Shown here piece by piece: positions 676 to 61,700 of a stretch of 63,735 nucleotides of DNA. The number at the start of each line of letters is the position of its first letter. The stretch's first letter is position 1. The translations under genes and the position numbers were made by a program. Where the stretch lies: positions 1 to 63,735 of the IMG/VR virus record IMGVR_UViG_3300022592_000004; one strand, written 5' to 3'. Under the pieces are notes generated by a model. It was not told where the DNA came from. It was given only the letters and a program-made list of their open reading frames with translations, and did not search any database. The DNA is from a virus. Its lineage: Duplodnaviria > Caudoviricetes.

Positions 676-870
676 ATGAGCAACCTCTCCGAAGAGATTC
701 TGAAGGGTATCACCGCTGCCATGGGTGGCACGAGGGAAGGGACCGTCTTCAAGGTATCCATCGACCAGGATGCCAAGTGCAAAAGATGCGGCAAAGGATG
801 GGCGGCAGAATCAGGCTACTGCATGAAATGCATAAATAAGGCGCTCAAACTTATGAAGGGGAAACGATGA
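676..870 (+). CDS. small zinc-finger protein
   Basis: CKRC...CMKC; GGGAG RBS upstream. Confidence 0.6.
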   Translation: MSNLSEEILKGITAAMGGTREGTVFKVSIDQDAKCKRCGKGWAAESGYCMKCINKALKLMKGKR

Positions 871-2171
871 GCGGCGGGGACTGGAGAACGATCACGATTG
901 GTCGGGTGGAGACAGAAACCATGAGCGAGGAGCTGAAGAAGTGCCCATTTTGCGGCGGCCCGGCCTATTACACCGAGAGTGTGAACGGATCGCTGATAGT
1001 TACCGTCGGTTGTGATCGATGCGGCGTCCACGTAAAGGCCGTGAAGGATGGTTACGGCGAGAATCCCCGGATCAGCAAGGATATTGTGGCGGTGTGGAAT
1101 TCGCGAGCTGAGGTCGAGAGACTGCAAAAGTGGATCGGGGATCTGCAGTCGGGGATGTACGTCAACTGCGTGTATTGCGGATACCAGTATGGGCCGAAGG
1201 AAACGACGCCGGTTACGATGGCCGATGCGCTGAAAGCGCACATCGAGGTGTGCGAGAAGCACCCCATGAGTGCGCTGAGACAAGAGACCGAGAGGCTGAA
1301 AAGCGCGTTACAGGCGATAAAAAAGCACGCCCTGCATCCCTGGGAGACTACACACCCGCCTTATCTGTACCAAGCCGCGCTGCGAACGATTGCGATAGCT
1401 GTCGACGAGATCCTGGACCGTTCCAAGGGGAACCTAGCCGGAGAGGTATGCGGGAAGCAATCCATGAGCGCCCTGAAGCGGGAGTTCGAGGAGGCCCGTA
1501 AGAACCTGGAGATCATGGACTCTATGGCGGCCGACAAGAACCGGCTGACGCTTGAGCTTGCCGAGGCTCGGAAGTCCCTGGTGAACCTGATTCAGGAACT
1601 TGAAGACGAATATTCAGCCGATAGAGACATCATTGCGACATCGGCAAAGGTCCAGGAGGAGAACGACCATCTCCGCGGTGATCTCGAACAGCTCGAGAAG
1701 AAGTCAGCCTGCTACAGGGCGATATTGGAGGCGCTGGAATTCCCCCGCCTCGACGATTATTCCGACCCGGAATTTGCCAGGATGATTGGAAAGAAAACGC
1801 TCCAGGTGATCCAGGACAAGGATGCCACGATAGGCGTCCTGACTGCAGCTGTCGACACCCGAACCAGAGACAAAGAGACACTCCAGGAAGAGCTTGAGCA
1901 GCTGAAGCGCGATACCCGGGAGGTCTGCATCTGCGCCGCCGTCCGGTTGCCTGGGGGCTGCATTACCAGGGGGCATCGCCACGAAGACTGTTTCCAAAGG
2001 ATGCTGGATCGGAAGATAGATCGAACCGACAGCGTGCAGGGATTTATCACCTCGCGCAACAGATTTGTGGATCGTGCGGCAGGCCGGCGCCTGCAGGATG
2101 CGGCCGGCCTGACGAGCGCGGATCCGGAAGGATACGAACCAGGCACGTTGCTCAGCGAGGATCTATATTGA
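867..2171 (+). CDS. mosaic protein: Lar-like zinc ribbon, coiled coil and C-terminal phage domain
   Basis: ELKKCPFCGG...CDRCG...WNSR is typical of Lar-family N-termini; long heptad region. Confidence 0.65.
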   Translation: MSGGDWRTITIGRVETETMSEELKKCPFCGGPAYYTESVNGSLIVTVGCDRCGVHVKAVKDGYGENPRISKDIVAVWNSRAEVERLQKWIGDLQSGMYVNCVYCGYQYGPKETTPVTMADALKAHIEVCEKHPMSALRQETERLKSALQAIKKHALHPWETTHPPYLYQAALRTIAIAVDEILDRSKGNLAGEVCGKQSMSALKREFEEARKNLEIMDSMAADKNRLTLELAEARKSLVNLIQELEDEYSADRDIIATSAKVQEENDHLRGDLEQLEKKSACYRAILEALEFPRLDDYSDPEFARMIGKKTLQVIQDKDATIGVLTAAVDTRTRDKETLQEELEQLKRDTREVCICAAVRLPGGCITRGHRHEDCFQRMLDRKIDRTDSVQGFITSRNRFVDRAAGRRLQDAAGLTSADPEGYEPGTLLSEDLY

Positions 2172-9595: not shown

Positions 9596-10862
9596 ATGGC
9601 AATCAACGGGCAGGAAGTTACTGAGACCGCCGAGCAAGAGCCGCCGGCGAAGACCGAAAAACAAGTCGACGACCTGATGCGCGGGCTGGTTGGAAAGCTG
9701 GTCACGGGTGCATCGTTCAGCTTGGAAGACGGCTTCCTCATCGAAATCGACGACATGATTCGATTTCGTTCCTGCTGCGAGCACACGCTGGTAATGCACA
9801 GGAAGGTTCAATGACCTACAGGCTGGGCGCCCGCGTGCGCCTCAAGGAGATTCATCAGTTCCAGGCGCATTGGAAGAAAAATCGAGAGCGCCTTGGCACG
9901 ATCGTGAGACTGGCTTTGGACCTGAACGGCTGCGATGGTGCCTGCCTGGTGTTGTGGGACGGTAAAATGAGCCTTGACGAATATTATCTTCATGAACTGG
10001 ACCTGGTAGAGGCATGACAGAGGAATTTTTCGCGGCTGAAAAAGTGGTGTGGCAGTTATTCGAGAGAGACCATTTCCGGCATCTCCACCTCACGATTTTC
10101 AGAAAGCAGCGTGCCAATGTCCTTGTGCGGTCGTTTGACCCGTCGGAAAGCGCCCAGATGACATTCTGTACCATGGTTCCACAGTTCTGGGTCGTTCCGA
10201 TCACGGGGATAATGATCACCTGGTGCTACTGCCCGGTCGAAAAAACATTCTTCTACGAGACCAGACATTATGATTCGGATCCGCTGCAGAGGGCTCTTGA
10301 CGAGCGAAGGGACAAGGTGCGCAAATGGACGGCTATGTGAAGATCGGATTTGGGCCCACTGGCACAGAGGAAGACCCCTCTAAAATTCCCTCGAAGCTGA
10401 TGGAGAAGATCGATCTTGCCAGGGAGATGTGCGAGGATTTCGCCGGTATCATGTCCAAGGCCGGGTTCTTTGTTTTCATGCAAGTCGTTGCGGCACAGGA
10501 GTGCCCCGACGGTTTGGCGGTGTTTTTCAACAAGATCGTAAGGCCGGATCAGGCAGCAGTGCTCCTGGATAAAATATCGAATGGTTCAGGCGCGATAAGA
10601 AAAAGATTTGGGGTACAAGACGGTAATGAGCGAAAACCCAGCTGATCGGATCACCCTGGAACGGAAGGTGGAGACGCTCGTTGACCAACTGGCGGGGTTC
10701 GACGAGAGGATACACCGGATCGAAAGCAAAGTTGAGGAGATCATTGACTGGATGAACAAGTTGTTCAAACAGGTCAATCCGATCGTCATCGAGTATACAA
10801 AAAACAAAGCCCTTTATGGGAATGGGACAGGAAATCCTCCACCAAGACAGGAGAAACCGTGA
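9596..10862 (+). CDS. run of small hypothetical genes (9596-9814, 9811-10017, 10014-10340, 10325-10645, 10626-10862)
   Basis: overlapping start/stop codons and RBSs. Confidence 0.55.
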
Positions 10863-11869
10863 CGAGAACAATATTCGAACCCTTTATGACTTATGCCAAA
10901 AAGATCGAGGCCGCCACAAAGTTCGGAAATCTCCTGGAACCCGGGGACGATCGCGATCGCATGTTCAAGAGGTATTCCAAGATTGTGCATCCGGATGTCG
11001 CGCCGGAGCCGCTCAAGGAGAGGGCTGAGGTCGTGTTCGCGAGACTGAACCAGCTCTACAGCGAAGAAACGAAGCCTCCCATTGTGCACCCGGTTGTAAT
11101 TGCTGGCTATGTCGTGATGGGGCCGCTCTCCAAAGGGGATATCGCAGATCTCTATGAGGCCCAGCACGCCGCCGGCGGAAGATTCGTGCTGAAGATTTCC
11201 AGGAGTCCGAAGGATAACGACCTCATGGATCGAGAGGCCGCGGCGCTCAAGGTTCTGCGTCCACCAAAGCCGAGTGTCAATGACATCGACTTTTTCAAAT
11301 ATATTCCAGAACTCCACGCCTCAACAAAAGCATCCGGCCGCCGCGTCAATGTGATCAGCGAGGCCGTGGATTGCATCAGCCTCAAGGAGATCGTTGCGTG
11401 TCAGGACGGAATAGGCGACTTCCGCCACATCGTGTGGATGGGGAATCGCGCCTTGAGCGCTCTTGGATATCTCCACCGGCAGGGCGTGATCCACGGTGCG
11501 GTGCTGCCACCGCACCTGATGTATCGGCCTGCAGACCACGGGTTTCAGTTGGTCGACTACTGCTACTCGTGCCAGGTCGAGAACAATGAGAAAGTGCCGG
11601 CGATGGCCAAGGAATATCAGGATTGGTACGCGCCGGAGATCATCAAGAAGAGGCCGGCTTCGGCCGCGACGGACATCTTCATGCTGATGACGACATTGAA
11701 AAAAGTCGCCAACAACATGCCAACTCGATTTCGGGATCTTATTACCTGGTGCACAGCAGGTTCGCCGGCCTCCAGGCCGGGCGACGCCTGGTTTGTCCAG
11801 GATAAGTGGGCGACCCTGGCGAAAGAAGAGTATGGGAAGCCCAAGTTCGTGCCGTTCACACTTAAATAA
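10859..11869 (+). CDS. J-domain (HPD) plus protein-kinase-like fold, probably a pseudokinase
   Basis: YSKIVHPD; KGDIADLY, VLKIS, LHRQGVIHGAVLPPHL (no HRD Asp), LVDY, YAPE. Confidence 0.8.
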   Translation: MTRTIFEPFMTYAKKIEAATKFGNLLEPGDDRDRMFKRYSKIVHPDVAPEPLKERAEVVFARLNQLYSEETKPPIVHPVVIAGYVVMGPLSKGDIADLYEAQHAAGGRFVLKISRSPKDNDLMDREAAALKVLRPPKPSVNDIDFFKYIPELHASTKASGRRVNVISEAVDCISLKEIVACQDGIGDFRHIVWMGNRALSALGYLHRQGVIHGAVLPPHLMYRPADHGFQLVDYCYSCQVENNEKVPAMAKEYQDWYAPEIIKKRPASAATDIFMLMTTLKKVANNMPTRFRDLITWCTAGSPASRPGDAWFVQDKWATLAKEEYGKPKFVPFTLK

Positions 11870-13265: not shown

Positions 13266-14597
13266 ATGAGAGCGTTTCTGGTTGCTGGTCTGGCCTTTGG
13301 GGACGAGGGCAAGGGATCGATGGTGGATTTCCTCGTCCGCCATTACGGCGCCAAGCTTGTCGTGCGCTATAATGGTGGACCGCAGGCGGCTCATAACGTG
13401 GTGACCCCTGACGGCCAGCACCACACCTTTTCGCAATTCGGGTCCGGCAGCTTTGTTCCCGAGTGCCGGACCCTTCTCTACAAAACAATGCTCGTGGATC
13501 CCTATGCGATGCTCAACGAGGCGGAAGTCTGGGCCAAGAACCATCCTGAACTTCCCGGCCTACTCGGGCGGATCACGGTCGATCCGGGCTGTGTTGTGAT
13601 CACGCCCTGGCATGCGATGGCGAACAGAATTAAGGAAGAAGCGCTTGGAACCGCAAGGCACGGGTCCTGCGGGCTGGGGATAGGCGAATCTCGATCCGAT
13701 CAGGAAAACGGACTGTGGTTTCAGGTTTCCGACATTTTCTCCGATGCCGGCACATCGACGAGACTGCTCGCGGCGATAAAGGGGAAAAAGATTGAGGAGA
13801 TGCGCGAGCTCTCGAATGAGACCGATTATGGGCGCAAGATGCTTCGGCGGATGAAGGATGTCGATCCCCACGAATTGCTGTTCTTCTATCGTGAGAAATG
13901 GGCCCCAAGGATACAACTCGCAAACGTGATGGATTTTCTGCGAGGGTCTTGGCATGAGACCGTTGTGTTCGAGGGGTCGCAGGGAGTTCTCATAGATCAG
14001 GATCTTGGGTTTTTCCCCTACGTGACCTGGACGGACTGCACATTTGGAAACCTGCGCATTCTCCTTGCCTGCATCGCCAGATACGCTGAACTCGAGGTTG
14101 TTAAGATCGGCGTCACCCGGGCCTATTTCGTGCGCCATGGTCCTGGCCCGTTCATAACCGAGACGAGCAGCCACGGGTATCCCGAGAGGTATAATGCGAA
14201 CGGCCCGTGGCAGGGCCCCGTGCGGAAGGGGGATATTGATTTCGTCGCCCTGCGGTATGCGCTCAAGGCGATTGGCGGCGTGGATCGGCTTGCCCTGACG
14301 CACATGGATTCGATCAACAAATACGGGACCCAATATTGCGACGGGTATCGAGCGGAGCATATGGGTTCTCTGATCAAGGACATTGCCGGCGTTCAGCTGA
14401 CCATGCTCGATCAGTTCCAGCCTCACCTAAAATCCACCGTCAACATGGTCGAAACCGCCGAAGAGCAACTCGGAGTTCGAGTGGGCTACACATCATGGGG
14501 GCCAACCGCAAATGACAAATTGGTTGCGAAATCTGTTGAAGAAGAAATACTCTCCGTACCAGTGGGCACGAACTCACATGAGAAAAGTCGAGTGTGA
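13266..14597 (+). CDS. adenylosuccinate synthetase-like protein (divergent PurA family)
   Basis: GDEGKG, RYNGGPQAAHNV, HGSCGLGIGE, FEGSQGVLID, PYVT, RHGPGPF. Confidence 0.85.
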   Translation: MRAFLVAGLAFGDEGKGSMVDFLVRHYGAKLVVRYNGGPQAAHNVVTPDGQHHTFSQFGSGSFVPECRTLLYKTMLVDPYAMLNEAEVWAKNHPELPGLLGRITVDPGCVVITPWHAMANRIKEEALGTARHGSCGLGIGESRSDQENGLWFQVSDIFSDAGTSTRLLAAIKGKKIEEMRELSNETDYGRKMLRRMKDVDPHELLFFYREKWAPRIQLANVMDFLRGSWHETVVFEGSQGVLIDQDLGFFPYVTWTDCTFGNLRILLACIARYAELEVVKIGVTRAYFVRHGPGPFITETSSHGYPERYNANGPWQGPVRKGDIDFVALRYALKAIGGVDRLALTHMDSINKYGTQYCDGYRAEHMGSLIKDIAGVQLTMLDQFQPHLKSTVNMVETAEEQLGVRVGYTSWGPTANDKLVAKSVEEEILSVPVGTNSHEKSRV

Positions 14598-19669: not shown

Positions 19670-20089
19670 ATGGACACCGTTCTGGGATCGGAAATGACGA
19701 CAAAACTGGCGGCGATCAGGTATGAACTAAACCTGAAATGCGGCAAGGTCGAATCGTTGATTGCCGAGATTGACAAGGTTCTCGGGAACGGATCAGAGGA
19801 AACCCAAACACCTACCTCAATTCCCGGTAGCCCATTTCAGGCCGCCGTCGAGCCCGGTCGGACACATTCTAAGCGGGACAGCATCATTCAGCAGGCGCTG
19901 CGTCAATTGCAGCGCGGACCATACGGCACCCGAGACCTGCTCAACGCACTCGCCCAAGAAGGTTATCCGATCAAGGGAAAGCGCCCGATACAAACCCTCT
20001 ACGGCATTCTTCACAAGGACATGAAGAGCGCCAAGCCGAGGGTGAAGCGCTCCAAAGATGGGCTCTGGCAGGAAATCAGAAATAATTAA
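19670..20089 (+). CDS. putative winged-helix DNA-binding protein
   Basis: C-terminal GPYGTRDLLNAL...LYGILHKD...GLW resembles HARE-HTH-like domains. Confidence 0.5.
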   Translation: MDTVLGSEMTTKLAAIRYELNLKCGKVESLIAEIDKVLGNGSEETQTPTSIPGSPFQAAVEPGRTHSKRDSIIQQALRQLQRGPYGTRDLLNALAQEGYPIKGKRPIQTLYGILHKDMKSAKPRVKRSKDGLWQEIRNN

Positions 20090-20093
20090 GATC

Positions 20094-20222
20094 GTTCCCT
20101 GGCACTGAACAGCTTACATGTTAGCTCATTTGGTAGAGCAACAGCTTTTCAAGCTGTGTGTGACCAGTTCGATTCTGGTACATATCCCCGAAAGGGGAAA
20201 CGCTGATCGACTTCCAGGGAAC
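20094..20222 (+). ncRNA. Y RNA-like unit 1; cargo is an unpermuted tRNA body (anticodon UUC) plus a GAAA hairpin
   Basis: stem GTTCCCTGG/CCAGGGAAC, CACTG, TACATG, CGACTT; D arm GCTC/GAGC, ACAGC-TTTTCAA-GCTGT, ACCAG-TTCGATT-CTGGT; no CCA. Confidence 0.75.
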
Positions 20223-20231
20223 ATAAAGTTT

Positions 20232-20319
20232 GGAGGAATGGCCGAGGGGTTGAAGGCGATGGTCCTGAAAACCATTATGGGGTGACTCATCGTGGGTTCA
20301 AATCCTACTTCCTCCGCCA
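20232..20319 (+). tRNA. tRNA-Ser(UGA)
   Basis: GGAGGAA/TTCCTCC acceptor, long variable arm, G73-CCA; loop CCTGAAA (C33). Confidence 0.85.
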
Positions 20320-20321
20320 AT

Positions 20322-20451
20322 CTTGGCGTCTACTGGAGTGCTTACATGGACTTGTAATCCAGAGGTTGGGAGTTCGAGTCTCTCACGGGACCTCGGTTCC
20401 GTTAGCTCAATTGGTAGAGCGCTTAGTTTAGCGCTCCGACTTGGCGCCAAG
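20322..20451 (+). ncRNA. Y RNA-like unit 2; permuted tRNA-Thr(UGU) mimic
   Basis: stem CTTGGCGTC/GGCGCCAAG; order anticodon arm (CTTGTAA), T arm, closed acceptor ACGGGAC-CTCG-GTTCCGT, D arm. Confidence 0.8.
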
Positions 20452-20468
20452 TAAATTCGAGGGTAAAC

Positions 20469-21044
20469 ATGGGCAGTGACGATCGTTTCTACCTGATGGA
20501 GATGCGCAACCGGCCGGTGAAGTATGGGGACATCGGATCGCTGATCAAGATCTGCGGGCTGGTGATCGGCGGCGCCGGAGAAGACAAAGCAATATTGATG
20601 CTCCCCGGCATGGACGCCCCAGCCGGCATATATCCCTCGAGGACCAAGGTATTGGAGTTGACCGTTGAGGAGTGGAGCGATTTCATCCGGAGATCCGACG
20701 ACCCCGAGATCCTGGTTGGGCCGGCAAGGATCTTCCAGCGCAAGGTGCGCTATGAGATCTCCGGCGCCATCCAGCAGAAGGTGTGGGCCGCGGATGGCTT
20801 TCAGTGCAGTTATTGTGGCGTTCGCATGGGGAATGCTCTCTTGACGATCGACCATTTCATTCCGCTCGAGCTGGGCGGAAAGAACGACGTGACGAACTAT
20901 CTGACGGCGTGCAAGAGATGCAACAAAGACAAGGGGTCACAGGATCCCTTTTTCTGGATCAAAGGGATGCAGGAAAAGCATCCTCTTAATTGCACGACCT
21001 ATGAAGTGTTCCTGGAATATCTGGAGCGCAGGATTGTGAAATGA
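20469..21044 (+). CDS. HNH endonuclease with an unknown N-terminal domain
   Basis: CSYCG...LTIDHFIPLELGGKNDVTNYLTACKRCNKDKG. Confidence 0.9.
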   Translation: MGSDDRFYLMEMRNRPVKYGDIGSLIKICGLVIGGAGEDKAILMLPGMDAPAGIYPSRTKVLELTVEEWSDFIRRSDDPEILVGPARIFQRKVRYEISGAIQQKVWAADGFQCSYCGVRMGNALLTIDHFIPLELGGKNDVTNYLTACKRCNKDKGSQDPFFWIKGMQEKHPLNCTTYEVFLEYLERRIVK

Positions 21045-21049
21045 GAGAT

Positions 21050-21208
21050 TTGGCTGTTACTGGATAGCTTACATGTCTGTGGGACCGGCGTTCCCGAAAG
21101 GGAGCATGAAGGTGAAAATCCTTCTCCCCCTGCCAACCTTTTACAGTATGGGGGGATGGCGGAACTATCATACGCACCGAAAAAGTTAGCTGACCGACTT
21201 ACAGCCAA
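21050..21208 (+). ncRNA. Y RNA-like unit 3; Leu-like tRNA mimic opened at the anticodon (YrlA-like topology)
   Basis: stem TTGGCTGT/ACAGCCAA; variable arm TTCCC-GAAA-GGGAG, T arm GAAGG/CCTTC, acceptor TCCCCCT/GGGGGGA, D arm GCG/CGC. Confidence 0.75.
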
Positions 21209-21218
21209 GATTGGTAAG

Positions 21219-21842
21219 ATGAAAATGAGAGTCTTTCTGGATGTCGGCGCACACATAGGGCAAACCCTCGAAGAGGTGATCAAGGAGGAATGGGGGTTTG
21301 ACCTTATCTACTCCTTTGAGCCCATGCCGGGGGAGTTTGCGAAGCTATCCGAAAAGTTCGGAAAACTTCGAAATGTCAGGCTGTTTAACTATGGGCTCCT
21401 GGACAGGACGGAAGAACTGCCGATGTATGGGGCCAACGACGGCATGGAGGCGACAGTCCTGCCGGACATGTCCACGATCCACCACCCGGAAAAGGTCACT
21501 ATGTGCCGCTTTGTCGAGGCGAGAGCCTTTATTGACTCGATCCCGCAGGAAGAGGGGATCATCCTAAAGTTGAACTGCGAGGGATCCGAGGTCGCGATTC
21601 TCGACAACCTGATCGACACGGGAAGGATCGGTCGCATTTTCTATGCCATGATAGACCCCGACTATCGGCACATGCCCCGCGGGATGGAGGAGATTCATCG
21701 TGTCCTGGATCGGTTAAAGGACGTGGGTTTTGATCGCTATTTTATGTGCGATGAGGTGATGATCGGTCCGACTCACCAAGAGAGGACGGCAAATTGGCTT
21801 AGAAAGATACCTTGGCCTGTTACTGGGAAAGGGTACATGTGA
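21219..21842 (+). CDS. FkbM-family SAM-dependent methyltransferase
   Basis: VFLDVGAHIG, SFEP, ILKLNCEGSE. Confidence 0.8.
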   Translation: MKMRVFLDVGAHIGQTLEEVIKEEWGFDLIYSFEPMPGEFAKLSEKFGKLRNVRLFNYGLLDRTEELPMYGANDGMEATVLPDMSTIHHPEKVTMCRFVEARAFIDSIPQEEGIILKLNCEGSEVAILDNLIDTGRIGRIFYAMIDPDYRHMPRGMEEIHRVLDRLKDVGFDRYFMCDEVMIGPTHQERTANWLRKIPWPVTGKGYM

Positions 21843-21936
21843 AGCGGATCGCATCCGCCCCCCTCCACAAAAGCACAGTATGGGGGGGCTCCCAGGTGGG
21901 AGACGCAATGAAACCTTTCGACGACTTACAGGCCAG
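21812..21936 (+). ncRNA. Y RNA-like unit 4; degenerate T-arm/acceptor/hairpin cargo
   Basis: stem TGGCCTGT/ACAGGCCA, TACTG, AAAGG/CCTTT, TACATG, CGACTT. Confidence 0.7.
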
Positions 21937-21943
21937 AGAGATT

Positions 21944-22086
21944 CTGGCTGCACACTGATAAAGGATACATGTTAATAAAGGTTCGAGTCCTTTATCCCCC
22001 ACATCTATGGGGGATTGGCCGAATGGTATAGGCGACAGACTTAAAATCTGTTTAACAGCAAAAACCTTTATCGACTTTGCAGCCAG
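21944..22086 (+). ncRNA. Y RNA-like unit 5; permuted tRNA-Leu(UAA) mimic opened at the variable arm
   Basis: stem CTGGCTGCA/TGCAGCCAG; T arm AAAGG-TTCGAGT-CCTTT, acceptor ATCCCCC/GGGGGAT, D arm, ACAGA-CTTAAAA-TCTGT. Confidence 0.8.
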
Positions 22087-22093
22087 GTAGAAT

Positions 22094-22234
22094 TTGGCCT
22101 GTCACGCCATGGGGCGTTACATGACTGGCTCCGGAAGGCCCGCGTCGCGGGGGCCTGCCAGTCTCCGCGACACAGGAGCAATCCTGGCTGGCTTCGGTCG
22201 GGCATTCGTAAAGCACATGCGACTTACAGGCCAA
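22094..22234 (+). ncRNA. Y RNA-like unit 6; GC-rich non-tRNA cargo
   Basis: stem TTGGCCTGT/ACAGGCCAA, TACATG, CGACTT; hairpins GACTGGC/GCCAGTC and CAGG/CCTG. Confidence 0.7.
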
Positions 22235-22241
22235 GAAATTA

Positions 22242-22375
22242 TGGCGGTCACTGAGAACGGTTACATGGTTAAGACAATCGTTTGAAAAACGATCAATCTG
22301 GGTTCGAATCCCGGGCCCCCCGCCTCGAGGGGGGGTTCGTCAAAGAGCAACACAACCGTAGTCGACTTACCGCCA
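22242..22375 (+). ncRNA. Y RNA-like unit 7; permuted tRNA mimic (anticodon GAA) opened in the D loop
   Basis: stem TGGCGGT/ACCGCCA; GGTTAA-GAC, ATCGT-TTGAAAA-ACGAT, CTGGG-TTCGAAT-CCCGG, GCCCCCC/GGGGGGT, TC-GTC. Confidence 0.8.
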
Positions 22376-22382
22376 GTTAGGA

Positions 22383-22459
22383 TTGTGGGGATCGCGAGAA
22401 GACTCTACGGTTTCCATCGCACGTAGACCCACGTTAAATCGGGGTAACGATCCCCACGA
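22383..22459 (+). ncRNA. unclassified structured RNA within the array
   Basis: GTGGGGATCG/CGATCCCCAC stem enclosing CTACG/CGTAG and CCC/GGG hairpins; lacks scaffold motifs. Confidence 0.5.
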
Positions 22460-22465
22460 AAAGAT

Positions 22466-22567
22466 TCGCTGGCACTGATCAGGGTACATGCGTTTACCTT
22501 CTAAGTAAAAGTGCAGCTCCCGGTCTTTGCGGTCCGGGAGTTAAGTGACCTGGTCGACTTCCAGCGA
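22466..22567 (+). ncRNA. Y RNA-like unit 8; isolated Arg(UCU) anticodon stem-loop plus a hairpin
   Basis: stem TCGCTGG/CCAGCGA, CACTG, TACATG, CGACTT; TTTAC-CTTCTAA-GTAAA; CTCCCGG/CCGGGAG. Confidence 0.7.
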
Positions 22568-22588
22568 TTTAATAAAGGGAGAACCGTC

Positions 22589-24061
22589 ATGGCAGAAGCA
22601 ACGAAGATCACGAAGAATCAGATCATCTCTGAACTGTCGAAATCGCCCCACGGCGACCTGAAGGAATACGTTCCTACAGGAAAGGTCGCTGCGTCCGCGG
22701 AGCCGGAGTTTTTTGCGCACCTCATCGCCTGGGACCGAACCAACGGCCAGGTAAGAGACGCGAAGGCCGCCCTGCCTGTGGTGTCTCTGAGCGTGGCCGA
22801 CTTCCCATCCGAGCTGGTGGAGAACTCACTGGCGCACCTTGCCAAGCTGAATCCCCGCGAGCTCCTCAAGGCATATCGCTTCGCGATCGCGATCAAGACG
22901 CCGGGGCATGGTAGGCGCCTGAAAAAGTTGGTTGCCGCCTATCTTCGGGAAAAGGAAGGCAACGGATGGGATCGAATCGCTATCCAACATCGTCACGTGT
23001 TGAAAGAATTGTATGCCCTTATTCACATCAAGCCGGGTCCTCATGCCGATGCGGTCTTGTTCAAGGGCCAGAGGCCCCCCAACTCGATTTTCGACCTGGT
23101 TGCCAGGCTGAAGGACATGAGTCCCCAGGAAGCAGCGGGGACCATCCTCGAGCGCAAGATTCCCTTTCTTATTGCGACCGGGGCGCTCGGAGCGAAGGCA
23201 AAAGAGCCAGACCTAGTTCTTGCGCTCATTGAGCGCATGAGCCCGACAGAAGTCGTCACCAACACCAAGATGTTGGAGAGGCTGGGCGTCAAGGATGTGC
23301 CTGCGCTCCGGGCGGCATTCGAGTCTGCTCTGGAGCGGGCGAGCAAGTCAAAAAAGACTACCTTCAAGGCCAGCGTGGCCATCGATGCGCTCGACGATGA
23401 CAAATTGAAGGCAAAACTCTCCGGCGTACAGGAGAAGCAGATTCAGGCTCTCGGCGGAGTCGAGGGCAACTGGCTGGTCTTGGGTGATAAGTCCGGATCC
23501 ATGCAGAACACGATTGAGATCGCACGCCAGGTTGCCGCCACTCTCGCCAAGATGGCCTTGGGACGCGTGATCCTGAGCTTCTTCGATATAACGCCCGAGA
23601 CCATTGACGTCACCAACCTGACCTACGACGAGATCAAGGATAGAACGAAGAGGATCACAGCCGCCGGCGGAACTTCGATCGGATGCGGTCTCATGGCTAT
23701 TCTCGATCGCAAGGTGGAAGTCGACGGCATCGCCATCATCTCGGATGCGCAGGAGAATACCCCTCCGGTGTTCGTGAATGCCTATAAGGAGTATTCAAAG
23801 TTTGCGGATAAAGAAGTGCCGGTCTATCTCTACCGCTGCGCGTATGAAGCCCAGGGTTGGGGGGACGTCGACCTGGCAAAGGCCATGAAGCAACATGGGT
23901 TTGATTTGCAGGAGTTCGATCTGAGAAAGGGAGTCGACTTTTATTCGCTCCCAAACCTTGTCAAAACCATGCGGACCAATCGGTATAGTCTGATCGATGA
24001 GATCCTGGCCACGCCGCTTCTGAGCCTGAGACAGGCGTTTCAGGAGACGGTGCAAGATTAG
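22589..24061 (+). CDS. divergent Ro60/TROVE-like protein with C-terminal vWA domain
   Basis: PEFFAHLIAW, GRRLKKLVAAY and LKELYALIHIKP (cf. Ro60 HKDLLRLSHLKP); MIDAS DKSGSM, GGTS, IISDAQEN; AAGGGAG RBS. Confidence 0.75.
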   Translation: MAEATKITKNQIISELSKSPHGDLKEYVPTGKVAASAEPEFFAHLIAWDRTNGQVRDAKAALPVVSLSVADFPSELVENSLAHLAKLNPRELLKAYRFAIAIKTPGHGRRLKKLVAAYLREKEGNGWDRIAIQHRHVLKELYALIHIKPGPHADAVLFKGQRPPNSIFDLVARLKDMSPQEAAGTILERKIPFLIATGALGAKAKEPDLVLALIERMSPTEVVTNTKMLERLGVKDVPALRAAFESALERASKSKKTTFKASVAIDALDDDKLKAKLSGVQEKQIQALGGVEGNWLVLGDKSGSMQNTIEIARQVAATLAKMALGRVILSFFDITPETIDVTNLTYDEIKDRTKRITAAGGTSIGCGLMAILDRKVEVDGIAIISDAQENTPPVFVNAYKEYSKFADKEVPVYLYRCAYEAQGWGDVDLAKAMKQHGFDLQEFDLRKGVDFYSLPNLVKTMRTNRYSLIDEILATPLLSLRQAFQETVQD

Positions 24062-24071
24062 GAGATCGATC

Positions 24072-24608
24072 ATGCTTCCATGTCCTAAATGCGGCAGCCC
24101 CATGAAATGGGAGAAGATCGAATGTAGCGCTCATCTTGCGTGCACATCGGGCTGTTTATGGATCGATTGCCCGAGTGAGCATGTAGCCGTCAGTCAATAC
24201 ATAAGATATGTCGGCGAGGATCGAGCTACGAAACTTGGAGTGACACTGAGATTGAGTTCGTTTCCAAGAAGCTATAAATCTAAGAAAGGAGGTAAGGCCA
24301 TGTTTATTATCGACGAGATTCGCCGGTTCAATACCGACGGCACTTCGCTGGAAGACCTGGTCGCGATGTCTGCGTCTGCCCGGGCTATCCAGTCCGAGTT
24401 TGCTGCGGTCAGCGTGGAAGAGCCCGAGTGGCTCAATCCCAAGATCCGCGAGATCCGCCGGGAGATCGCTACTCGGCAGGCTGATCGTATCGAGAGGCTG
24501 ATCCGGGAGAAGAAGTCCCGGCTCGAAGCTCTGCAGCCAGAAGAGCAAAAGCGCGAGGCTCTCAAGCTTGAGATCGACCGGCTGGAGAAGAAACTTGCCG
24601 ACCAGTAA
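24072..24608 (+). CDS. Zn-ribbon N-terminus in frame with a coiled-coil protein that has its own start at 24300
   Basis: CPKC...CTSGC; AAAGGAGGT RBS before ATG 24300. Confidence 0.65.
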   Translation: MLPCPKCGSPMKWEKIECSAHLACTSGCLWIDCPSEHVAVSQYIRYVGEDRATKLGVTLRLSSFPRSYKSKKGGKAMFIIDEIRRFNTDGTSLEDLVAMSASARAIQSEFAAVSVEEPEWLNPKIREIRREIATRQADRIERLIREKKSRLEALQPEEQKREALKLEIDRLEKKLADQ

Positions 24609-25221: not shown

Positions 25222-25227
25222 GAACAT

Positions 25228-25299
25228 CCGGGCGTAGCGCAGGGGTAGCGCACATGCCTTGGGAGCATGAGGGCGCCCGTTCGATTCGGGCCGCCCGGA
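25228..25299 (+). tRNA. tRNA-Pro(UGG)
   Basis: CCGGGCG/CGCCCGG, CATGC-CTTGGGA-GCATG, GCCCG-TTCGATT-CGGGC; CCA not encoded. Confidence 0.85.
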
Positions 25300-25308
25300 T
25301 ACCTAATG

Positions 25309-25383
25309 GGGGACCGTAGCTCAATGGTAGAGCATTCGGTTGTGGCCCGTTTGATGGCGATTCGAATCCGTCCGGTCCCTCCA
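25309..25383 (+). tRNA. tRNA-His(GUG), atypical
   Basis: G-1, GGGACCG/CGGTCCC, loop TTGTGGC, U73-CCA; mismatches in anticodon and T stems. Confidence 0.75.
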
Positions 25384-58732: not shown

Positions 58733-61700
58733 ATGGCCACGCAACCAGAACAGACGCCGGATCCGTTGCAGCCACCCCAGGGGCAAGGTCCTTCTGACGA
58801 AGATCTCCTAAAGCAAAAGTATAAGAGCCCAAGAGATCTACTGCTAGATCCGAACTTCCACAGCATTAAAAATGCCGAAGTGAGGAGGAAACTACTCGGG
58901 ATGATCTATCCCGATTTCAACAATTACGACACGCCGAGCCAAAACGATGCTTTAGGGAAGAAGGTCACTGATTGGCAGAAGTATTACTCGGATCTGGACG
59001 CCGCGGCCAAGCCAAAGACTCCTGCGATTTCAGACAAGGCGATCAGCGCTCTCGCAGGCGGCCTGCCGCCACCGCCCGGGACTGTGCCCTTCAAACCAAA
59101 GTCTACCGCGGGAATCCCCGGAGCGCTGCCGCCGGAGGGAACGCCGCTGGAGTCGATCTGGGACAAAGCCGATACCTACGCCAAAAAGTTCGGCATTGAC
59201 CCTCAGATCAACCGCGCAATTATCCTGGCCGAGTCTGGGGGGGATCCAAATACCAGTCGCACTGACTCCAATGGGCTCCTTTCGCGTGGGCTCTATCAGT
59301 GGAACGGAGCTGGCCGCGGTAAAGGGGTTCCGGATAATCTGGCATTCGATCCCGATTATGTCATTCCAAAGTCCCTCGAGTATATCAAGCCGGTCTATGA
59401 TGATGGTGTGGCGCAAGGTCTATCCGGACAAGATCTGTTGCTCTACATTGGGAGAAACGCACAGAGATATCAGCAGAACGTCGGCGACCGATCCTATTCC
59501 AATGCCTGGGAAACGATACAGACTGGGCAGGAGTTGCCGCAGCGCATAGTGACGGCAACCAAGACCGCGCAAGCGCCGGGAACCACTGCAGCCGTGCCAT
59601 CTCTGCCGGCGCCCCCATCAGCCGGTGGCCGAGCGGCTGGCCCGATGCTTCCACCTCCTCCAGGTGCCGGAGTTCGTGCTACGGGAATCGCAGCTCCGGT
59701 CGCCGCTGAGCCCGCGGCTGGGGCTCGGGCGGCGGGGATCGCGGCGCCCACACCAGCACAGACCCAGAGGCCAGTTCCCGCTGCGCCAACCCCGTTCGAT
59801 CAGATCACGACGCAGATTGCCAACCAAAGGAAGGCCCTCGAGGATCACCTCCAGGAGGGGAAGAACAAGATCGACGCCTTGAAGAAGGAAGTGGAAACCC
59901 CTCCCGCGGCAGATGCCCCGTTCCAGGAGCGCGAGGACTGGCAGCACAAGCAGGGGGTGCTGTCCGATATGGTAGATTCCTACAACGCCGATCAGGAGCA
60001 AAGAATCGCGGCGTTCAACAAGATGATTGCCGACGCGCAGCCACAGTTTACGAAGGCACCGGCAAAATATGCGACTCCAAAGAAGATCTCCTCCGATACG
60101 ATCAGGGCTGTCTATGACTTCTTCCAGCCTGGCCTGGTCGACAAGATGGCAGGTTTTTACGACCTGCATCCGGCCTTGAGACCATTCGCGCAGGGTCTCG
60201 CAGAGGGCACCACATTGGGATTCGCCGGCAGACAGCAGGGAATGCCAGAGCCAACCGGCGCCTACGCGAAGAGCATGGAATGGGTCGGCGAGCAGGCGGG
60301 ATCCCTGCCTTACTACTACCTCGGTGCTCGACTTCTCGGCCTCGCCGGCGGATTGCTGCCGAAGTTACCGATCGTCGGAAGATATCTCGGCATACTTGCC
60401 AAGCTTCCCGAGGCTGTTGGCGTGAGAACCGCCGCCGCGAAGACCGCGGAAGAGGCGGCGGAGATTGCCAGCAAGATGGTTGCGGCTGGCAAGACGATCG
60501 AAGCTCCCGCGGCGCTGGCCGACGCGCTCAGGATCGCAAGTGAGAATCCAAACCTGACCAAATTCCTCACGGTTCCCCTTATCAAAGCCGCAAACGTCGG
60601 AACGGTTATGGCTTCCGTTGGCGCAATCCATGCTATCGCGAACGGCGACGATCCAAAGATAGCCGCTCTTCATGGGTATGAGCTCGCTCTGGCTGGAGAG
60701 ATGATCGCAGCGAGTCCTCCGATGCGGGCACTGGTGGACAAGCTGAGAATGAATATCAAGGATCCGAGCGTCCAGGCGATGCTCCAGAAGATCGGCATCC
60801 CGAAGGCCGCTTTTAAGGATTATGTCGACCAAGCCGGTGAAGCCTTCAAGGAACAGCCTGAAGTTAAAAGGCTCGTCGATGAGGGCGAAGTCCAGTATGC
60901 CGAGGAACTGAAGAGGCATACCGAAGCGGGGACCCTGCACGAACTTCCGGAGAAAGATGATTTTGTCTGGAAATATATCAATCAAAATCTTCCGGAGGGC
61001 ACAAGCGCAGGGGGTTTCATAACAAATTTCACGAGGGGGAAGATCGCTAACGAACATCCGGAGTATGAGGTTCTTCGGACTTTTCTCAATAACTATCTCA
61101 CGCAGCGCCACGCTGCGGCTTTAGGAGAGGCGGCCGCGGGGGCCACGAGCTACGGTTTAGCTGCAGCTGGAATTCAGATCGCCTACACGCCTGGCGATAT
61201 CATGACCAGGCTCAAAGCTGGCGGGCGCGACGGGTTGTCCACCTTCCTTGCTGTAGGGGCATTCCATCTTCCGTCCTTGATCGATGCATTGCAGATCCGT
61301 GCAGGACGCGACCTGGATCCGACGGAAGCCGCCACCGAATACAACAACATGACGACGGCAGAGCGCAAGTTGCTCGTCGGGAAGATAGCGCAGCCGGACA
61401 TCGATCGGGCGGTCGAGAACATCAACAATGAGGCCGGCCAGACGCCGGCGACGACTGAGCCCAACCCTATTCCTCCCGAGGTAGGCGCGACGCCGATTGA
61501 ACCAACCCCAGCTCCAGCCCCTCCGGCCGAGGTTCCTACTCCTCCGCTTCCAAGGCCGCCGACTACCGAAGTGACCGCGCCTCCAGAAACTCCAGAAGCG
61601 GTTCCCGGTCCGATAACGGGCATTGCCCCGGGGGGCACGGTCGACAAGACCCCGCCGCCTGGGGGGGAAGCGCAACAACCAGGTCGCTCTGAAGAACTTG

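What the first reader, a model, noticed from the sequence alone, without database searches (positions are those of the whole stretch)
20094..24608. Candidate new system: Ro60/TROVE protein with an array of eight modular scaffold-plus-cargo RNAs
Eight units (20094, 20322, 21050, 21812, 21944, 22094, 22242, 22466) share a 7-9 bp terminal stem that covaries in every copy, YACTG (CACGC in unit 6), an inner stem, invariant TACATG, variable cargo, an A/T-rich linker and invariant CGACTT. Adjacent units are separated by short purine/AT-rich linkers such as AGAGATT, and the array ends about 20 nt before a TROVE-vWA gene. Ro60 orthologs are known to bind Y RNAs encoded next to them, and YrlA RNAs mimic tRNA, but usually only one or two RNAs with one topology are described. 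A constant handle with swappable cargo suggests a programmable ribonucleoprotein, for example a panel of decoys or sensors for host anticodon nucleases (inference).
Basis: partly seen in the sequence, partly recalled or inferred. Interest (0 to 1): 0.95.

Follow-up and report, generated by a model that had tools for sequence, protein, structure and literature searches.

The report
Phage Ro60 with eight Y RNAs
A pond phage carries a very divergent Ro60 RNA-binding protein preceded by eight small-RNA genes that share one docking stem but carry different, mostly tRNA-shaped bodies: an unusually large version of a known protein-RNA partnership whose job in phages is untested.

Summary
Eight units on the + strand (20094-22569) share a 7-9 bp terminal stem, a YAC/ACUU internal loop, an inner stem, UACAUG and CGACUU. 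A covariance model built only from relatives finds all eight and nothing else in 63.7 kb.

Only unit 2 resembles Rfam YrlA, at 49 bits, below the 69-bit threshold. Five of the eight bodies carry an anticodon-arm-like hairpin. Units 3 and 4 carry an acceptor-like hairpin with NCCA.

The arrangement is typical of this phage group. 42 of 43 related loci have 1-7 units, always upstream of the Ro60 gene on its strand. The window's eight is the largest array seen.

In the cloverleaf-type unit the anticodon differs between phages while U33, R37 and A38 are kept.

So this is a real Ro60/Y-RNA system and an expanded variant of a known kind.

Earlier notes of this scan report 4-6 Y RNAs beside bacterial rsr genes. 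None concern this phage family.

The parts
20094..20222 (+). Y-RNA unit 1: handle plus a whole tRNA-like cloverleaf (D arm, anticodon arm with loop UUUUCAA, T arm) and a GAAA-loop hairpin
   Evidence: R1 49.5 bits and R2 57.6 bits. Rfam tRNA 48.6 bits with 2 mismatched acceptor pairs. ARAGORN calls it tRNA-Glu(UUC). Fold.
20232..20319 (+). tRNA-Ser(UGA) gene with long variable arm and encoded CCA, lying between units 1 and 2
   Evidence: ARAGORN. Rfam tRNA 53.4 bits. Sequence.
20322..20451 (+). Y-RNA unit 2: YrlA-like body (T arm, acceptor-like hairpin, D arm) preceded by an anticodon-arm-like hairpin (loop CUUGUAA)
   Evidence: Rfam YrlA RF02553 49 bits, E 2.7e-9, model 1-114 of 114, below the 69-bit threshold. 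R2 45.9 bits. Hairpin.
20469..21044 (+). HNH endonuclease gene (191 aa) inside the array; its link to the RNP is not shown
   Evidence: Pfam HNH_5 and HNH. Homolog found beside or inside the array in 26 of 47 related loci, 24 of them at 50-72% identity. 378 homologs. Fold resembles Cas9-HNH, Gme HNH nickase and McrA; N-terminal 100 aa unmatched.
21049..21209 (+). Y-RNA unit 3: handle plus four hairpins, one of them an acceptor-like C-run/G-run hairpin whose loop starts with GCCA
   Evidence: R1 45.3 bits and R2 64.3 bits. Fold. C-run plus NCCA.
21222..21842 (+). FkbM-family methyltransferase gene; accessory insertion whose 3' end overlaps the 5' handle of unit 4
   Evidence: Pfam Methyltransf_21. 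TIGR01444 48.6 bits. No homolog in 47 related loci. The ORF as listed starts at 21156; ATG 21222 is my choice of start.
21812..21936 (+). Y-RNA unit 4: handle plus three hairpins, the middle one an invariant acceptor-like hairpin CCCCCCUCCAC...UAUGGGGGGG
   Evidence: R2 49.6 bits. Six orthologs keep the middle hairpin unchanged while the two flanking hairpins covary.
21943..22087 (+). Y-RNA unit 5: permuted tRNA-like body (T arm, acceptor-like hairpin, D arm, anticodon arm with loop CUUAAAA)
   Evidence: R1 21.6 bits and R2 44.2 bits. Rfam tRNA 27.9 bits, below the 29-bit threshold..
22094..22234 (+). Y-RNA unit 6: divergent handle (CA loop, bulged inner stem) and a G+C-rich body without tRNA features
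   Evidence: Scanner finds 0 mismatches, TACATG and CGACTT. R1 4.8 bits. R2 23.6 bits, E 1.7e-4. Fold.
22240..22377 (+). Y-RNA unit 7: anticodon arm (loop UUGAAAA), T arm, acceptor-like hairpin
   Evidence: R1 31.2 bits and R2 47.2 bits. Rfam tRNA 31.5 bits over model positions 9-63.
22383..22459 (+). Handle-less hairpin element between units 7 and 8, with the same kind of A/U-rich flanks; status unknown
   Evidence: Minimum free energy -33.5 kcal/mol, z -3.64, 2 of 200 shuffles fold as well. No similar sequence in 47 loci. R1 1.2 bits.
22464..22569 (+). Y-RNA unit 8: short unit with an anticodon-arm-like hairpin (loop CUUCUAA) and a second hairpin; ends 20 nt before the Ro60 start
   Evidence: R1 62.2 bits (unit 8 was in R1's training set) and R2 59.0 bits..
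22589..24061 (+). Ro60-like protein gene (490 aa): alpha-helical repeat ring plus C-terminal vWA domain with MIDAS residues

Best explanation
This is the small-RNA gene cluster of a phage-encoded Ro60/Y-RNA ribonucleoprotein system.

Eight RNA genes of about 100-160 nt lie upstream of, and on the same strand as, a very divergent Ro60 gene. Each RNA joins its two ends into the same handle:
- a 7-9 bp terminal stem;
- an internal loop, YAC on the 5' side and ACUU on the 3' side;
- a U-G and a G-C pair followed by a 5-6 bp inner stem;
- single-stranded UACAUG.

This handle is the family's own version of the Ro60-docking stem of YrlA-type Y RNAs.

Inferred, not shown: the Ro60 ring binds the handle, protects the RNA and displays its variable body.

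Shown by sequence and folding: the bodies are tRNA look-alikes wired to the handle in at least four different ways (whole cloverleaf; T arm, sealed acceptor hairpin, D arm; the same plus an anticodon arm; a lone anticodon-type hairpin), or multi-hairpin bodies with a sealed acceptor-like stem that carries NCCA.

The mechanism I think most likely comes by analogy with the Deinococcus and Salmonella Ro60/Y RNA/PNPase complex and the phiLo phage complex. Each Y RNA acts as an adaptor that couples the phage Ro60 ring to a host protein that handles tRNA-shaped RNA, such as a 3'-to-5' exoribonuclease (PNPase) or tRNA processing and modifying enzymes. This would redirect host RNA decay or RNA quality control during infection, and eight bodies would give eight couplings.

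The cluster is probably transcribed together with the Ro60 mRNA and cut apart at the A/U-rich linkers and at the embedded tRNA-Ser (inferred).

My odds: about 0.9 that it is a Ro60/Y-RNA array; about 0.4 that adaptor coupling rather than decoy action is the main function.
For: Protein:
- The predicted fold matches Ro60 over its whole length.
- Viral look-alikes are named Ro-like or TROVE.
- The MIDAS residues are invariant.

Handle:
- Unit 2 aligns end to end with Rfam YrlA, including both handle helices.
- On 95 distinct units from relatives, 92.2% of handle cells pair, against 58.1% in shuffles and 32-45% when partners are slid.
- 464 cells carry changes on both sides of a pair, against 126 in shuffles (0 of 500 shuffles reach it). 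14 of 15 pairs covary.
- That alignment was fitted to the model, which favours pairing.

Association with the Ro60 gene:
- 109 of 109 R1 hits in 47 loci lie on the Ro60 strand, upstream of the gene.
- 164 of 164 R2 hits in 44 sources, 500,714 bases, do the same.
- In five relatives that are 96-100% complete, all 28 hits sit in one cluster per genome; in the three I checked by coordinates that cluster lies next to the Ro60 gene.
- 42 of 43 related loci have at least 1 unit and 40 of 43 have at least 2 (my count).

tRNA mimicry:
- 55 of 103 distinct units have a canonical T arm. 14 have D before T and 6 have T before D.
- Units 1 and 7 pass the Rfam tRNA threshold.

Not real tRNAs:
- Three of the ten cloverleaf-type units that Rfam calls tRNA match only model positions 5-66 or 7-64, so they lack an acceptor stem.
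- The 'tRNA-Ser' body in L001 has a 5-nt variable loop.

Literature:
- phiLo Ro60 plus Yrl plus host PNPase form a complex in vitro (PMC12135203, passages).
Against: - There is no evidence of transcription or of discrete RNA ends.
- The TROVE domain is not detectable by sequence: Pfam TROVE matches 0 of 29 family members at E<=1, and there is no PDB hit by sequence. The Ro60 assignment therefore rests on a predicted structure.
- The 5' motif GNCGAAN0-1G, which Chen et al. 2014 link to Rsr binding, is absent from the first 35 nt of 103 of 103 units. Binding by Ro60 is therefore inferred from position and architecture only.
- Five near-complete relatives encode no RtcB, no Rnl-type RNA ligase and no CCA-adding enzyme. 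The bacterial RNA-repair context is missing, and any effector must come from the unknown host.
- The adaptor model does not by itself explain why a canonical 7-nt anticodon loop is kept while its triplet is free.
- Unit 6 fits the handle model only weakly.
Confidence: 0.6

Rival explanations
1. Decoy panel. The Ro60-stabilised tRNA look-alikes soak up host tRNA-directed defence enzymes (anticodon nucleases such as PrrC, RloC, PARIS AriB or retron PtuAB, or other tRNA-damaging toxins). The anticodon loops are retuned to whatever the local host deploys.
For: - Five of eight window units carry a 5-bp stem with a 7-nt loop, U at position 33 and a purine at 37; the triplets are UUC, UGU, UAA, GAA and UCU.
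- Sixteen units were flagged as cloverleaf order, one of them (L001_3988) wrongly. Among them U33 is kept in 15, R37 in 15 and A38 in 14, while positions 34-36 have 1.6-1.95 bits of entropy and 12 different triplets.
- ARAGORN reads 11 different anticodons (plus one 2-nt loop) in the 12 units it calls.
- A Ro60-like protein of coliphage Bas63, next to its tRNA genes, was reported to counter the ppl defence (PMC11482910, passage).
- The phage carries other anti-defence-type genes, namely a Lar-like domain and a DNA methylase.
Against: - A decoy for one nuclease should keep that nuclease's target anticodon, and no triplet is conserved.
- The compared phages are distant (Ro60 42-67% identical to the window's). 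Saturation by drift at unconstrained positions gives the same picture.
- No closely related pairs were available to test for diversifying selection: the public runs that hold this phage showed no variants in the array.
- Three of eight units have no tRNA feature at all.
- No defence or anti-defence family matches the Ro60 (PADLOC, 0 hits).
Confidence: 0.2
2. Pre-tRNA cassettes. The cloverleaf-bearing units are real tRNA genes, and the shared 'handle' is only a leader-trailer stem used for processing or storage; Ro60 is incidental.
For: - Cloverleaf units of relatives score as high as genuine tRNAs in Rfam (67.9 bits in L007, 67.1 in L003).
- Two orthologs have NCCA right after a well-paired acceptor stem (L003, L008).
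- The array is interleaved with a real tRNA-Ser and lies near tRNA-Pro and tRNA-His.
Against: - Only 14 of 103 distinct units have the D-before-T cloverleaf order. 27 are 100 nt or shorter with no T arm, and others are permuted with sealed acceptor ends.
- Unit 1 has 2 mismatched acceptor pairs and no CCA.
- Three of ten cloverleaf units lack an acceptor stem.
- D and T arms are the same whatever the anticodon, and a 'Ser' body lacks the long variable arm.
- The handle is found only next to the Ro60 gene, never at the phages' other tRNA genes.
Confidence: 0.07
3. Cis-regulatory leader. The units, above all unit 8 just before the ribosome-binding site, are binding sites through which Ro60 feeds back on translation or stability of its own mRNA, rather than free small RNAs.
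For: - The last unit ends 15-35 nt before the Ro60 start in the window and, by my reading of the coordinates, in at least 11 relatives.
- No terminator-like site on the + strand separates array and gene.
Against: - In 26 of 47 loci an HNH homolog is found upstream, in many of them directly between the array and Ro60, and in L041 the units lie 4.7 kb upstream.
- One site would suffice for feedback, whereas 2-8 different bodies are conserved as orthologous types.
- The ribosome-binding site is not part of unit 8's fold.
Confidence: 0.08
4. Repeated DNA element with no RNA role, for example target sites of the resident HNH endonuclease or recombination repeats.
For: - An HNH gene sits inside or beside the array in 26 of 47 loci.
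- The motifs TACATG and CGACTT are near-invariant at the DNA level.
Against: - Compensatory changes keep both handle helices and the body hairpins paired, which selection on DNA sites does not predict.
- All 164 hits are on one strand.
- Unit 2 matches an RNA family end to end.
- 21 of 47 loci have arrays or units without an HNH gene nearby.
Confidence: 0.03

Closest known systems
YrlA and YrlB, the Y RNAs beside rsr (Ro60) in Salmonella Typhimurium and Mycobacterium smegmatis (Rfam RF02553; Chen et al. 2014, PMC4201824)
   Same: - Small RNAs encoded next to and on the strand of Ro60.
- The ends pair into a two-helix handle with an internal loop.
- The body mimics a tRNA with T arm, sealed acceptor-like hairpin and D arm. 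Unit 2 aligns to the whole model.
- An acceptor-like hairpin that could be opened by RNase P and end in CCA, as shown for M. smegmatis YrlA (passage). Units 3 and 4 here encode NCCA at that place.
   Different: - No unit reaches the Rfam threshold: 49 against 69 bits for unit 2, no match for the other seven; 0 YrlA matches at threshold in 12 related loci.
- The 5' GNCGAAN0-1G motif is absent in 103 of 103 units, replaced by YACUG...UACAUG with CGACUU on the 3' side.
- Eight RNAs rather than two.
- Bodies with full anticodon arms.
- No rtcB or rtcA partner genes.
Yrn1 of Deinococcus radiodurans with Rsr and PNPase
   Same: - Body order D-like arm, anticodon-like stem-loop, T arm relative to the handle, as in unit 1 (passage in PMC4201824).
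- It is the source of the adaptor mechanism proposed here.
   Different: - Yrn1's 'anticodon loop' has 6 nt and its D arm is incomplete (same passage). Unit 1 and its orthologs have a standard D arm and a 7-nt loop with U33 and R37.
- No PNPase link is shown here.
Thermus phage phiLo Ro60 with Yrl1 and Yrl2 (PMC12135203; PDB 9KOP, 9L5Y)
   Same: - A phage Ro60 with Y-RNA-like genes directly upstream.
   Different: - 16-17% sequence identity.
- Two RNAs with a CGAA motif rather than eight with YACUG/UACAUG/CGACUU.
- No tRNA-like bodies are mentioned in the passages I read.
Caulobacter phage CcrColossus Ro with three putative YrlA genes, and 20 mycobacteriophages plus Bacillus phage G with one each (Chen et al. 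2014, Table S2, read)
   Same: Several Y RNA genes in a row upstream of a phage Ro gene on the same strand.
   Different: - Three at most, all found with one YrlA model.
- The window protein finds none of these phages by tblastn at E<=1e-5; the only hit in 50,697 phage records is an uncultured 595-kb phage at 28.8% identity.
Coliphage Bas63 gp130, a Ro60-like protein next to the phage tRNA genes, reported to counter the ppl defence (PMC11482910)
   Same: A phage Ro60-fold protein beside tRNA-like genes, with a proposed anti-defence role (passage).
   Different: No Y RNAs were defined there, and I made no sequence or structure comparison with gp130.

Membership tests
Ro60 / TROVE protein family | Ring of alpha-helical (HEAT-like) repeats followed by a vWA domain, as in solved Ro60 structures | tested here: met
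Ro60 / TROVE protein family | Sequence match to Pfam TROVE (PF05731) | tested here: not met
   No TROVE match for the window protein at E<=0.01, nor for any of 29 family members at E<=1. vWA_Ro60 (PF25045) matches 3 of 29, best E 2.9e-4. NCBIfam gives 0 families.
Ro60 / TROVE protein family | MIDAS motif in the vWA domain (DxSxS ... T ... D) | tested here: met
   D300, S302, S304, T362 and D386 are invariant in the 29-sequence alignment. That these are the MIDAS positions is my reading of the motif, supported by the vWA alignment.
Ro60 / TROVE protein family | Binds Y RNAs | not testable with these tools
   It needs pull-down or gel shift. The complex predictor takes no RNA and was not available.
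Y RNA (Ro60-associated small RNA) | About 80-130 nt, with 5' and 3' ends paired into a long stem with an internal loop or bulge | tested here: met
   Units are 102-160 nt. Every minimum-energy fold closes the ends into terminal stem, internal loop and inner stem. The family shows covariation. Three units (3, 5, 6) are longer than 130 nt.
Y RNA (Ro60-associated small RNA) | Encoded close to the Ro60 gene on the same strand | tested here: met
   8 of 8 in the window. 164 of 164 model hits in 44 sources. 28 of 28 hits in five near-complete genomes lie in one cluster per genome.
Y RNA (Ro60-associated small RNA) | Made as a discrete stable RNA bound by Ro60 | not testable with these tools
   No run on record as RNA holds the stretch.
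YrlA (Rfam RF02553) | Score at or above the family's gathering threshold (69 bits) | tested here: not met
   Unit 2 scores 49 bits. The other seven have no match at E<=10. 0 matches at threshold in 12 related loci, 126 kb.
YrlA (Rfam RF02553) | 5' motif GNCGAAN0-1G (Chen et al. 2014) | tested here: not met
   Present in the first 35 nt of 0 of 103 distinct units.
YrlA (Rfam RF02553) | tRNA-like domain in the order T arm, acceptor-like hairpin, D arm | tested here: met
   Met by unit 2 and unit 5, and by 6 of 103 units under strict motifs. Not met by units 1, 3, 4, 6, 7 and 8.
tRNA (Rfam RF00005) | Cloverleaf above threshold with a paired 7-bp acceptor stem and a free 3' end for CCA | tested here: not met
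   Unit 1 scores 48.6 bits but has 2 non-pairs in the acceptor stem, no CCA, and both ends run on into the handle. Unit 7 matches only positions 9-63. Three of ten orthologous cloverleaf units lack the acceptor stem.

The most novel reading that the evidence does not exclude
A widespread group of roughly 100-110 kb environmental phages uses one Ro60 ring as a common carrier for a set of up to eight exchangeable tRNA look-alikes. Their anticodon loops are kept in tRNA shape while the triplet is retuned from phage to phage. This would be a protein-scaffolded decoy or adaptor set aimed at the hosts' tRNA-directed defences or tRNA enzymes, possibly working together with the co-inherited HNH nuclease.
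Probability: 0.15. Interest if true: 0.85.

Novelty: new variant of a known kind. Interest (0 to 1): 0.55.

Why it matters
What the tRNA-like part of bacterial Y RNAs is for is still open (PMC4201824, 'Functional implications', passages).

This phage group offers a natural experiment on that question:
- One docking handle carries many bodies: whole cloverleaf, permuted tRNA, lone anticodon arm, sealed acceptor stem with CCA.
- The bodies are conserved as orthologous types across phages, next to a Ro60 so divergent that domain searches miss it.

The finding also shows that standard annotation misreads such loci. Rfam and ARAGORN call the cloverleaf bodies tRNA genes and call the rest nothing.

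The family is large: 371 protein clusters at E<=1e-30 among 1.84 billion representatives. A handle model such as R2 would recover several hundred unannotated small-RNA genes.

If the RNAs prove to be adaptors or decoys for host tRNA-handling proteins, that would give phage Ro60 a concrete role in infection.

Tried and rejected
- **Expression.** No RNA holder is listed for 20050-22650 among public runs.
- **Strain variation.** Laying contigs of four DNA runs showed no variants in the array. The lower word shares of three runs came from fragmented low-depth contigs, so no strain-level test of anticodon change was possible.
- **Ro60-HNH complex.** The complex predictor was not available.
- **Alignment of the eight whole units.** MAFFT (A2) misplaced the 3' handle of units 5 and 8, so I did not use it for a model.
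- **Closer relatives.** The metagenome scan gave one locus, which duplicates L002 by its identical hit scores.
- **Host.** The genome collection gave four short MAG contigs (Acidobacteriaceae twice, Terrimicrobiaceae, Clostridia). I do not trust these for host assignment.
- **Defence families.** PADLOC gave nothing for the Ro60. The HNH gave only weak HNH-motif matches to PtuB and similar families, best E 1e-7.
- **RNA-repair partners.** RtcB, Rnl-type RNA ligase and CCA-adding enzyme match 0 of 5 near-complete relatives.
- **Neighbouring genes.** The FkbM gene, the two small ORFs after Ro60 (24072-24608) and ORFs 24654 and 24844 have no homolog in 47 loci.
- **Element X.** It has no similar sequence in the loci.
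- **tmRNA.** Weak tmRNA matches inside unit 4 (16.6 and 15 bits) are far below threshold and I dismissed them.
- **Promoters and terminators.** The scans were at or below shuffle expectation.
- **Literature.** The 2020 Annual Review on bacterial Ro60 could not be read. Table S1 of Chen et al. 2014 (bacteria) was not opened, so I do not know the largest number of YrlA genes per bacterial genome reported there.
- **Searches for a description of larger phage arrays.** Searches found none in the listings.

Full report
**Setting.** The window is one viral record of 63,735 bases, judged 60% complete.
- All long ORFs lie on the + strand.
- Pfam finds an SU10-type portal and two SU10-type adaptors, a phage metallopeptidase, a DNA methylase, a Lar-like domain, a protein kinase and an adenylosuccinate-synthase-like gene.
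- One public run holds the stretch inside a 111,327-base contig.
- Relatives that are 96-100% complete measure 102-110 kb.

So this is a fragment of a phage of about 110 kb from pond metagenomes. The host is unknown.

**The observation.** TACATG followed within 40-160 nt by CGACTT occurs eight times in the window, all between 20115 and 22560.
- A scanner that also demands a 7-nt stem flanking YAC[TG][GC] and GACTT returns the eight units with no stem mismatch.
- It returns one loose hit elsewhere and none on the - strand. Shuffled windows give 0-6 loose hits.
- The eight stems differ in sequence but all pair.
- Minimum-energy folds of all eight close the ends in the same way: terminal stem, internal loop (three nt on the 5' side, two in unit 6, against ACUU on the 3' side), then an inner stem that starts with a U-G and a G-C pair.

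**Independent test with covariance models.**
- R1 was built from unit 8 and 12 short units of relatives. It finds 7 of 8 units and nothing else in the window at E<=1. Unit 6 gets only 4.8 bits.
- Over 47 related loci R1 gives 109 hits at E<=0.1, all on the strand of the protein gene and all upstream of it.
- On that alignment (95 distinct rows) 92.2% of cells pair, against 58.1% in shuffles and 32-45% with slid partners. 464 cells changed on both sides, against 126 in shuffles. 14 of 15 pairs covary. The alignment was fitted to the model, which favours pairing.
- R2 was built from those 109 hits, with no window sequence. It finds all eight window units (23.6 to 64.3 bits) and nothing else in the window at E<=0.01.
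- R2 gives 164 hits in 44 sources (500,714 bases), all on the + strand upstream of the gene.
- My count from that table: 42 of 43 related sources have at least one unit, 40 of 43 have at least two, and the range is 0-7. The single blank locus has only 272 nt upstream. The window's eight is the largest array.
- In five near-complete genomes all 28 hits lie in a single cluster per genome.

**The protein.** The ORF starting at ATG 22589 (490 aa) has only a weak vWA match in Pfam, a C-terminal match to PHROG 850 'RNA-binding protein', and no PDB relative by sequence or by profile beyond a vWA domain.
- It has more than 1,100 homologs, all from metagenomes, and 371 clusters at E<=1e-30 in the representative library.
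- None of 29 members matches Pfam TROVE even at E<=1.
- The AlphaFold model (pLDDT 81.3) nevertheless matches Ro60 over its full length. The twelve best listed Foldseek rows are Ro60/TROVE entries, led by the Thermus phage phiLo protein.
- Viral look-alikes include proteins named Ro-like or TROVE.
- The MIDAS residues are invariant.

I therefore call it a highly divergent Ro60 on the strength of a predicted fold.

**The handle compared with YrlA.** Only unit 2 matches Rfam YrlA: 49 bits, E 2.7e-9, the whole model, below the 69-bit threshold. Both handle helices are aligned and a 15-nt insertion sits before the T arm.
- The motif GNCGAAN0-1G, which Chen et al. link to Rsr binding (passage), is absent from the 5' part of all 103 distinct units.
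- The family instead keeps YACUG (TACTG 45, CACTG 12 among units where the pattern was found), UACAUG (79 of 96) and CGACUU (57 of 84).

A divergent protein thus goes with a divergent docking motif. That they bind each other is inference.

**The bodies**.
- Unit 1: D arm, anticodon arm (UUC), T arm, an imperfect acceptor-like stem, then a GAAA-loop hairpin.
- Unit 2: anticodon-type hairpin (UGU), T arm, sealed acceptor-like hairpin, D arm.
- Unit 5: T arm, sealed acceptor-like hairpin, D arm, anticodon arm (UAA).
- Unit 7: anticodon arm (GAA), T arm, sealed acceptor-like hairpin.
- Unit 8: anticodon-type hairpin (UCU) and one more hairpin.
- Units 3 and 4: no T or D arm, but a C-run/G-run hairpin whose loop opens with GCCA or UCCA.
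- Unit 6: G+C-rich, with no tRNA feature.

In six orthologs of unit 4 the C-run/G-run hairpin is invariant while the two flanking hairpins covary. It reads as an acceptor stem with discriminator and CCA, closed by a loop. This recalls the M. smegmatis YrlA that RNase P opens and the CCA enzyme extends (passage).

Across 103 distinct units, 55 have a canonical T arm, 14 have D before T, 6 have T before D, and 27 are 100 nt or shorter with no T arm.

**Variable anticodons.** ARAGORN of the 103 units tRNA, with 11 different anticodons plus one 2-nt loop.
- Sixteen units were flagged as cloverleaf order. One of them, L001_3988, is a misassigned row.
- Among the sixteen, U33 is kept in 15, a purine at 37 in 15 and A38 in 14. 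Positions 34-36 carry 1.6-1.95 bits of entropy and 12 different triplets.
- D and T arms are nearly the same throughout.
- These bodies are not decoding tRNAs. Three of ten lack an acceptor stem. Unit 1 has two acceptor mismatches and no CCA. A 'Ser' body has a 5-nt variable loop.

Whether the free triplet reflects drift or retuning cannot be decided, because the phages compared are distant and no close variants were found.

**What interrupts the array.**
- A genuine tRNA-Ser(UGA).
- An HNH gene whose homologs lie beside or inside the array in 26 of 47 loci, 24 of them at 50-72% identity, about as conserved as Ro60 itself. It has 378 homologs. Its fold resembles Cas9-HNH, Gme HNH nickase and McrA, and its conserved N-terminal 100 residues match nothing. 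It may be a core phage nuclease (packaging or homing) or a partner of the RNP; I could not tell.
- An FkbM methyltransferase gene found in none of 47 relatives.
- An 88-nt hairpin without handle (z -3.64).

**Context.** Five near-complete relatives encode no RtcB, no Rnl-type RNA ligase and no CCA-adding enzyme. Unlike bacterial rsr-rtcB operons, the phage brings only Ro60 and the RNAs. Phage tRNA genes lie a few kb downstream, both here and in relatives.

**Comparison with what is known.**
- Y RNAs next to Ro60, their tRNA mimicry and both body orders are described (PMC4201824, abstract and passages).
- In phages, Table S2 of that paper lists one YrlA in 21 phages and three in CcrColossus. 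phiLo has two.
- The main text gives 355 YrlA in 254 bacteria and 22 phages.
- Three literature searches showed no description of larger phage arrays or of this handle in their listings. I could not read the 2020 review and did not open Table S1.
- Earlier notes of this scan, which I did not check, report 4-6 Y RNAs beside bacterial rsr genes. None concerns this protein family.

I therefore class the finding as a new variant of a known kind:
- a large, unannotated phage branch of the Ro60/Y-RNA partnership;
- its own docking motif;
- arrays of up to eight;
- bodies that include complete anticodon arms.

**Mechanism.**
- Shown: the conserved handle structure, its exclusive position before the Ro60 gene, the Ro60 fold, and the tRNA-like features.
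- Inferred: transcription and processing into separate RNAs, binding of the handle by Ro60, and function.

The reading I favour, at about 0.4, is adaptor action as in the Ro60/Y RNA/PNPase complexes. The decoy reading gets about 0.2. The remaining odds go to feedback control, real tRNA precursors and non-RNA repeats.

Noticed in passing
window 20469-21044: The HNH gene inside the array is co-inherited with the Ro60 gene. Homologs lie beside or inside the array in 26 of 47 loci, 24 of them at 50-72% identity. Its strongly conserved N-terminal 100 residues (RFY, RP, GD, LP, W, RK-R, SG-QQ-W) have no structural match.
   Followed up: partly
window 22383-22459: A stable 77-nt hairpin (10-bp closing stem, z -3.64) without the Ro handle lies between units 7 and 8, flanked by the same GGAUU and AAGAUU type linkers. 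No copy was found in 47 related loci. It could be a ninth small RNA of another kind.
   Followed up: partly
window 21222-21842: An FkbM-family methyltransferase gene is inserted between units 3 and 4 and is absent from all 47 relatives. Its stop codon lies inside the UACAUG of unit 4, so the coding sequence and the RNA handle overlap by 31 nt.
   Followed up: partly
window 21857-21888 and 21126-21155; L001, L002, L003, L005, L034 orthologs: The acceptor-like hairpin of units 3 and 4 carries NCCA directly after the C-run (invariant CCCCCCUCCAC in six orthologs), like a tRNA 3' end sealed by a loop.
   Followed up: partly
L034:2816-2942: The cloverleaf-type unit of this relative has the anticodon UUA, which would read the UAA stop codon if the RNA were ever used in translation.
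   Followed up: no
window 13266-14597: An adenylosuccinate-synthase-like gene (Pfam E 5.2e-55) scores below the NCBIfam cut-offs for both PurA (149.6 against 402 bits) and PurZ (43.7 against 300 bits). It is a divergent phage purine-pathway enzyme of unclear product.
   Followed up: partly
window 58733-63733: An open-ended ORF of at least 1,667 aa running off the window has a histidine-phosphatase domain at residues 985-1182 and no other Pfam match.
   Followed up: no
window 867-2171 and 10859-11869: A 434-aa protein has a Lar-type restriction-alleviation domain at its N terminus, and there is a Ser/Thr-kinase-like gene with weak similarity to defence-system kinases (MADS6, PglW). These are likely host-takeover or anti-defence genes.
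   Followed up: no
window 25227-25383: tRNA-Pro(UGG) and tRNA-His(GUG) genes lie 1.2 kb downstream of the Ro60 gene. In relatives 4-10 tRNA genes follow the Ro60 gene, so the Ro60/Y-RNA module sits at the head of the phage tRNA cluster.
   Followed up: partly
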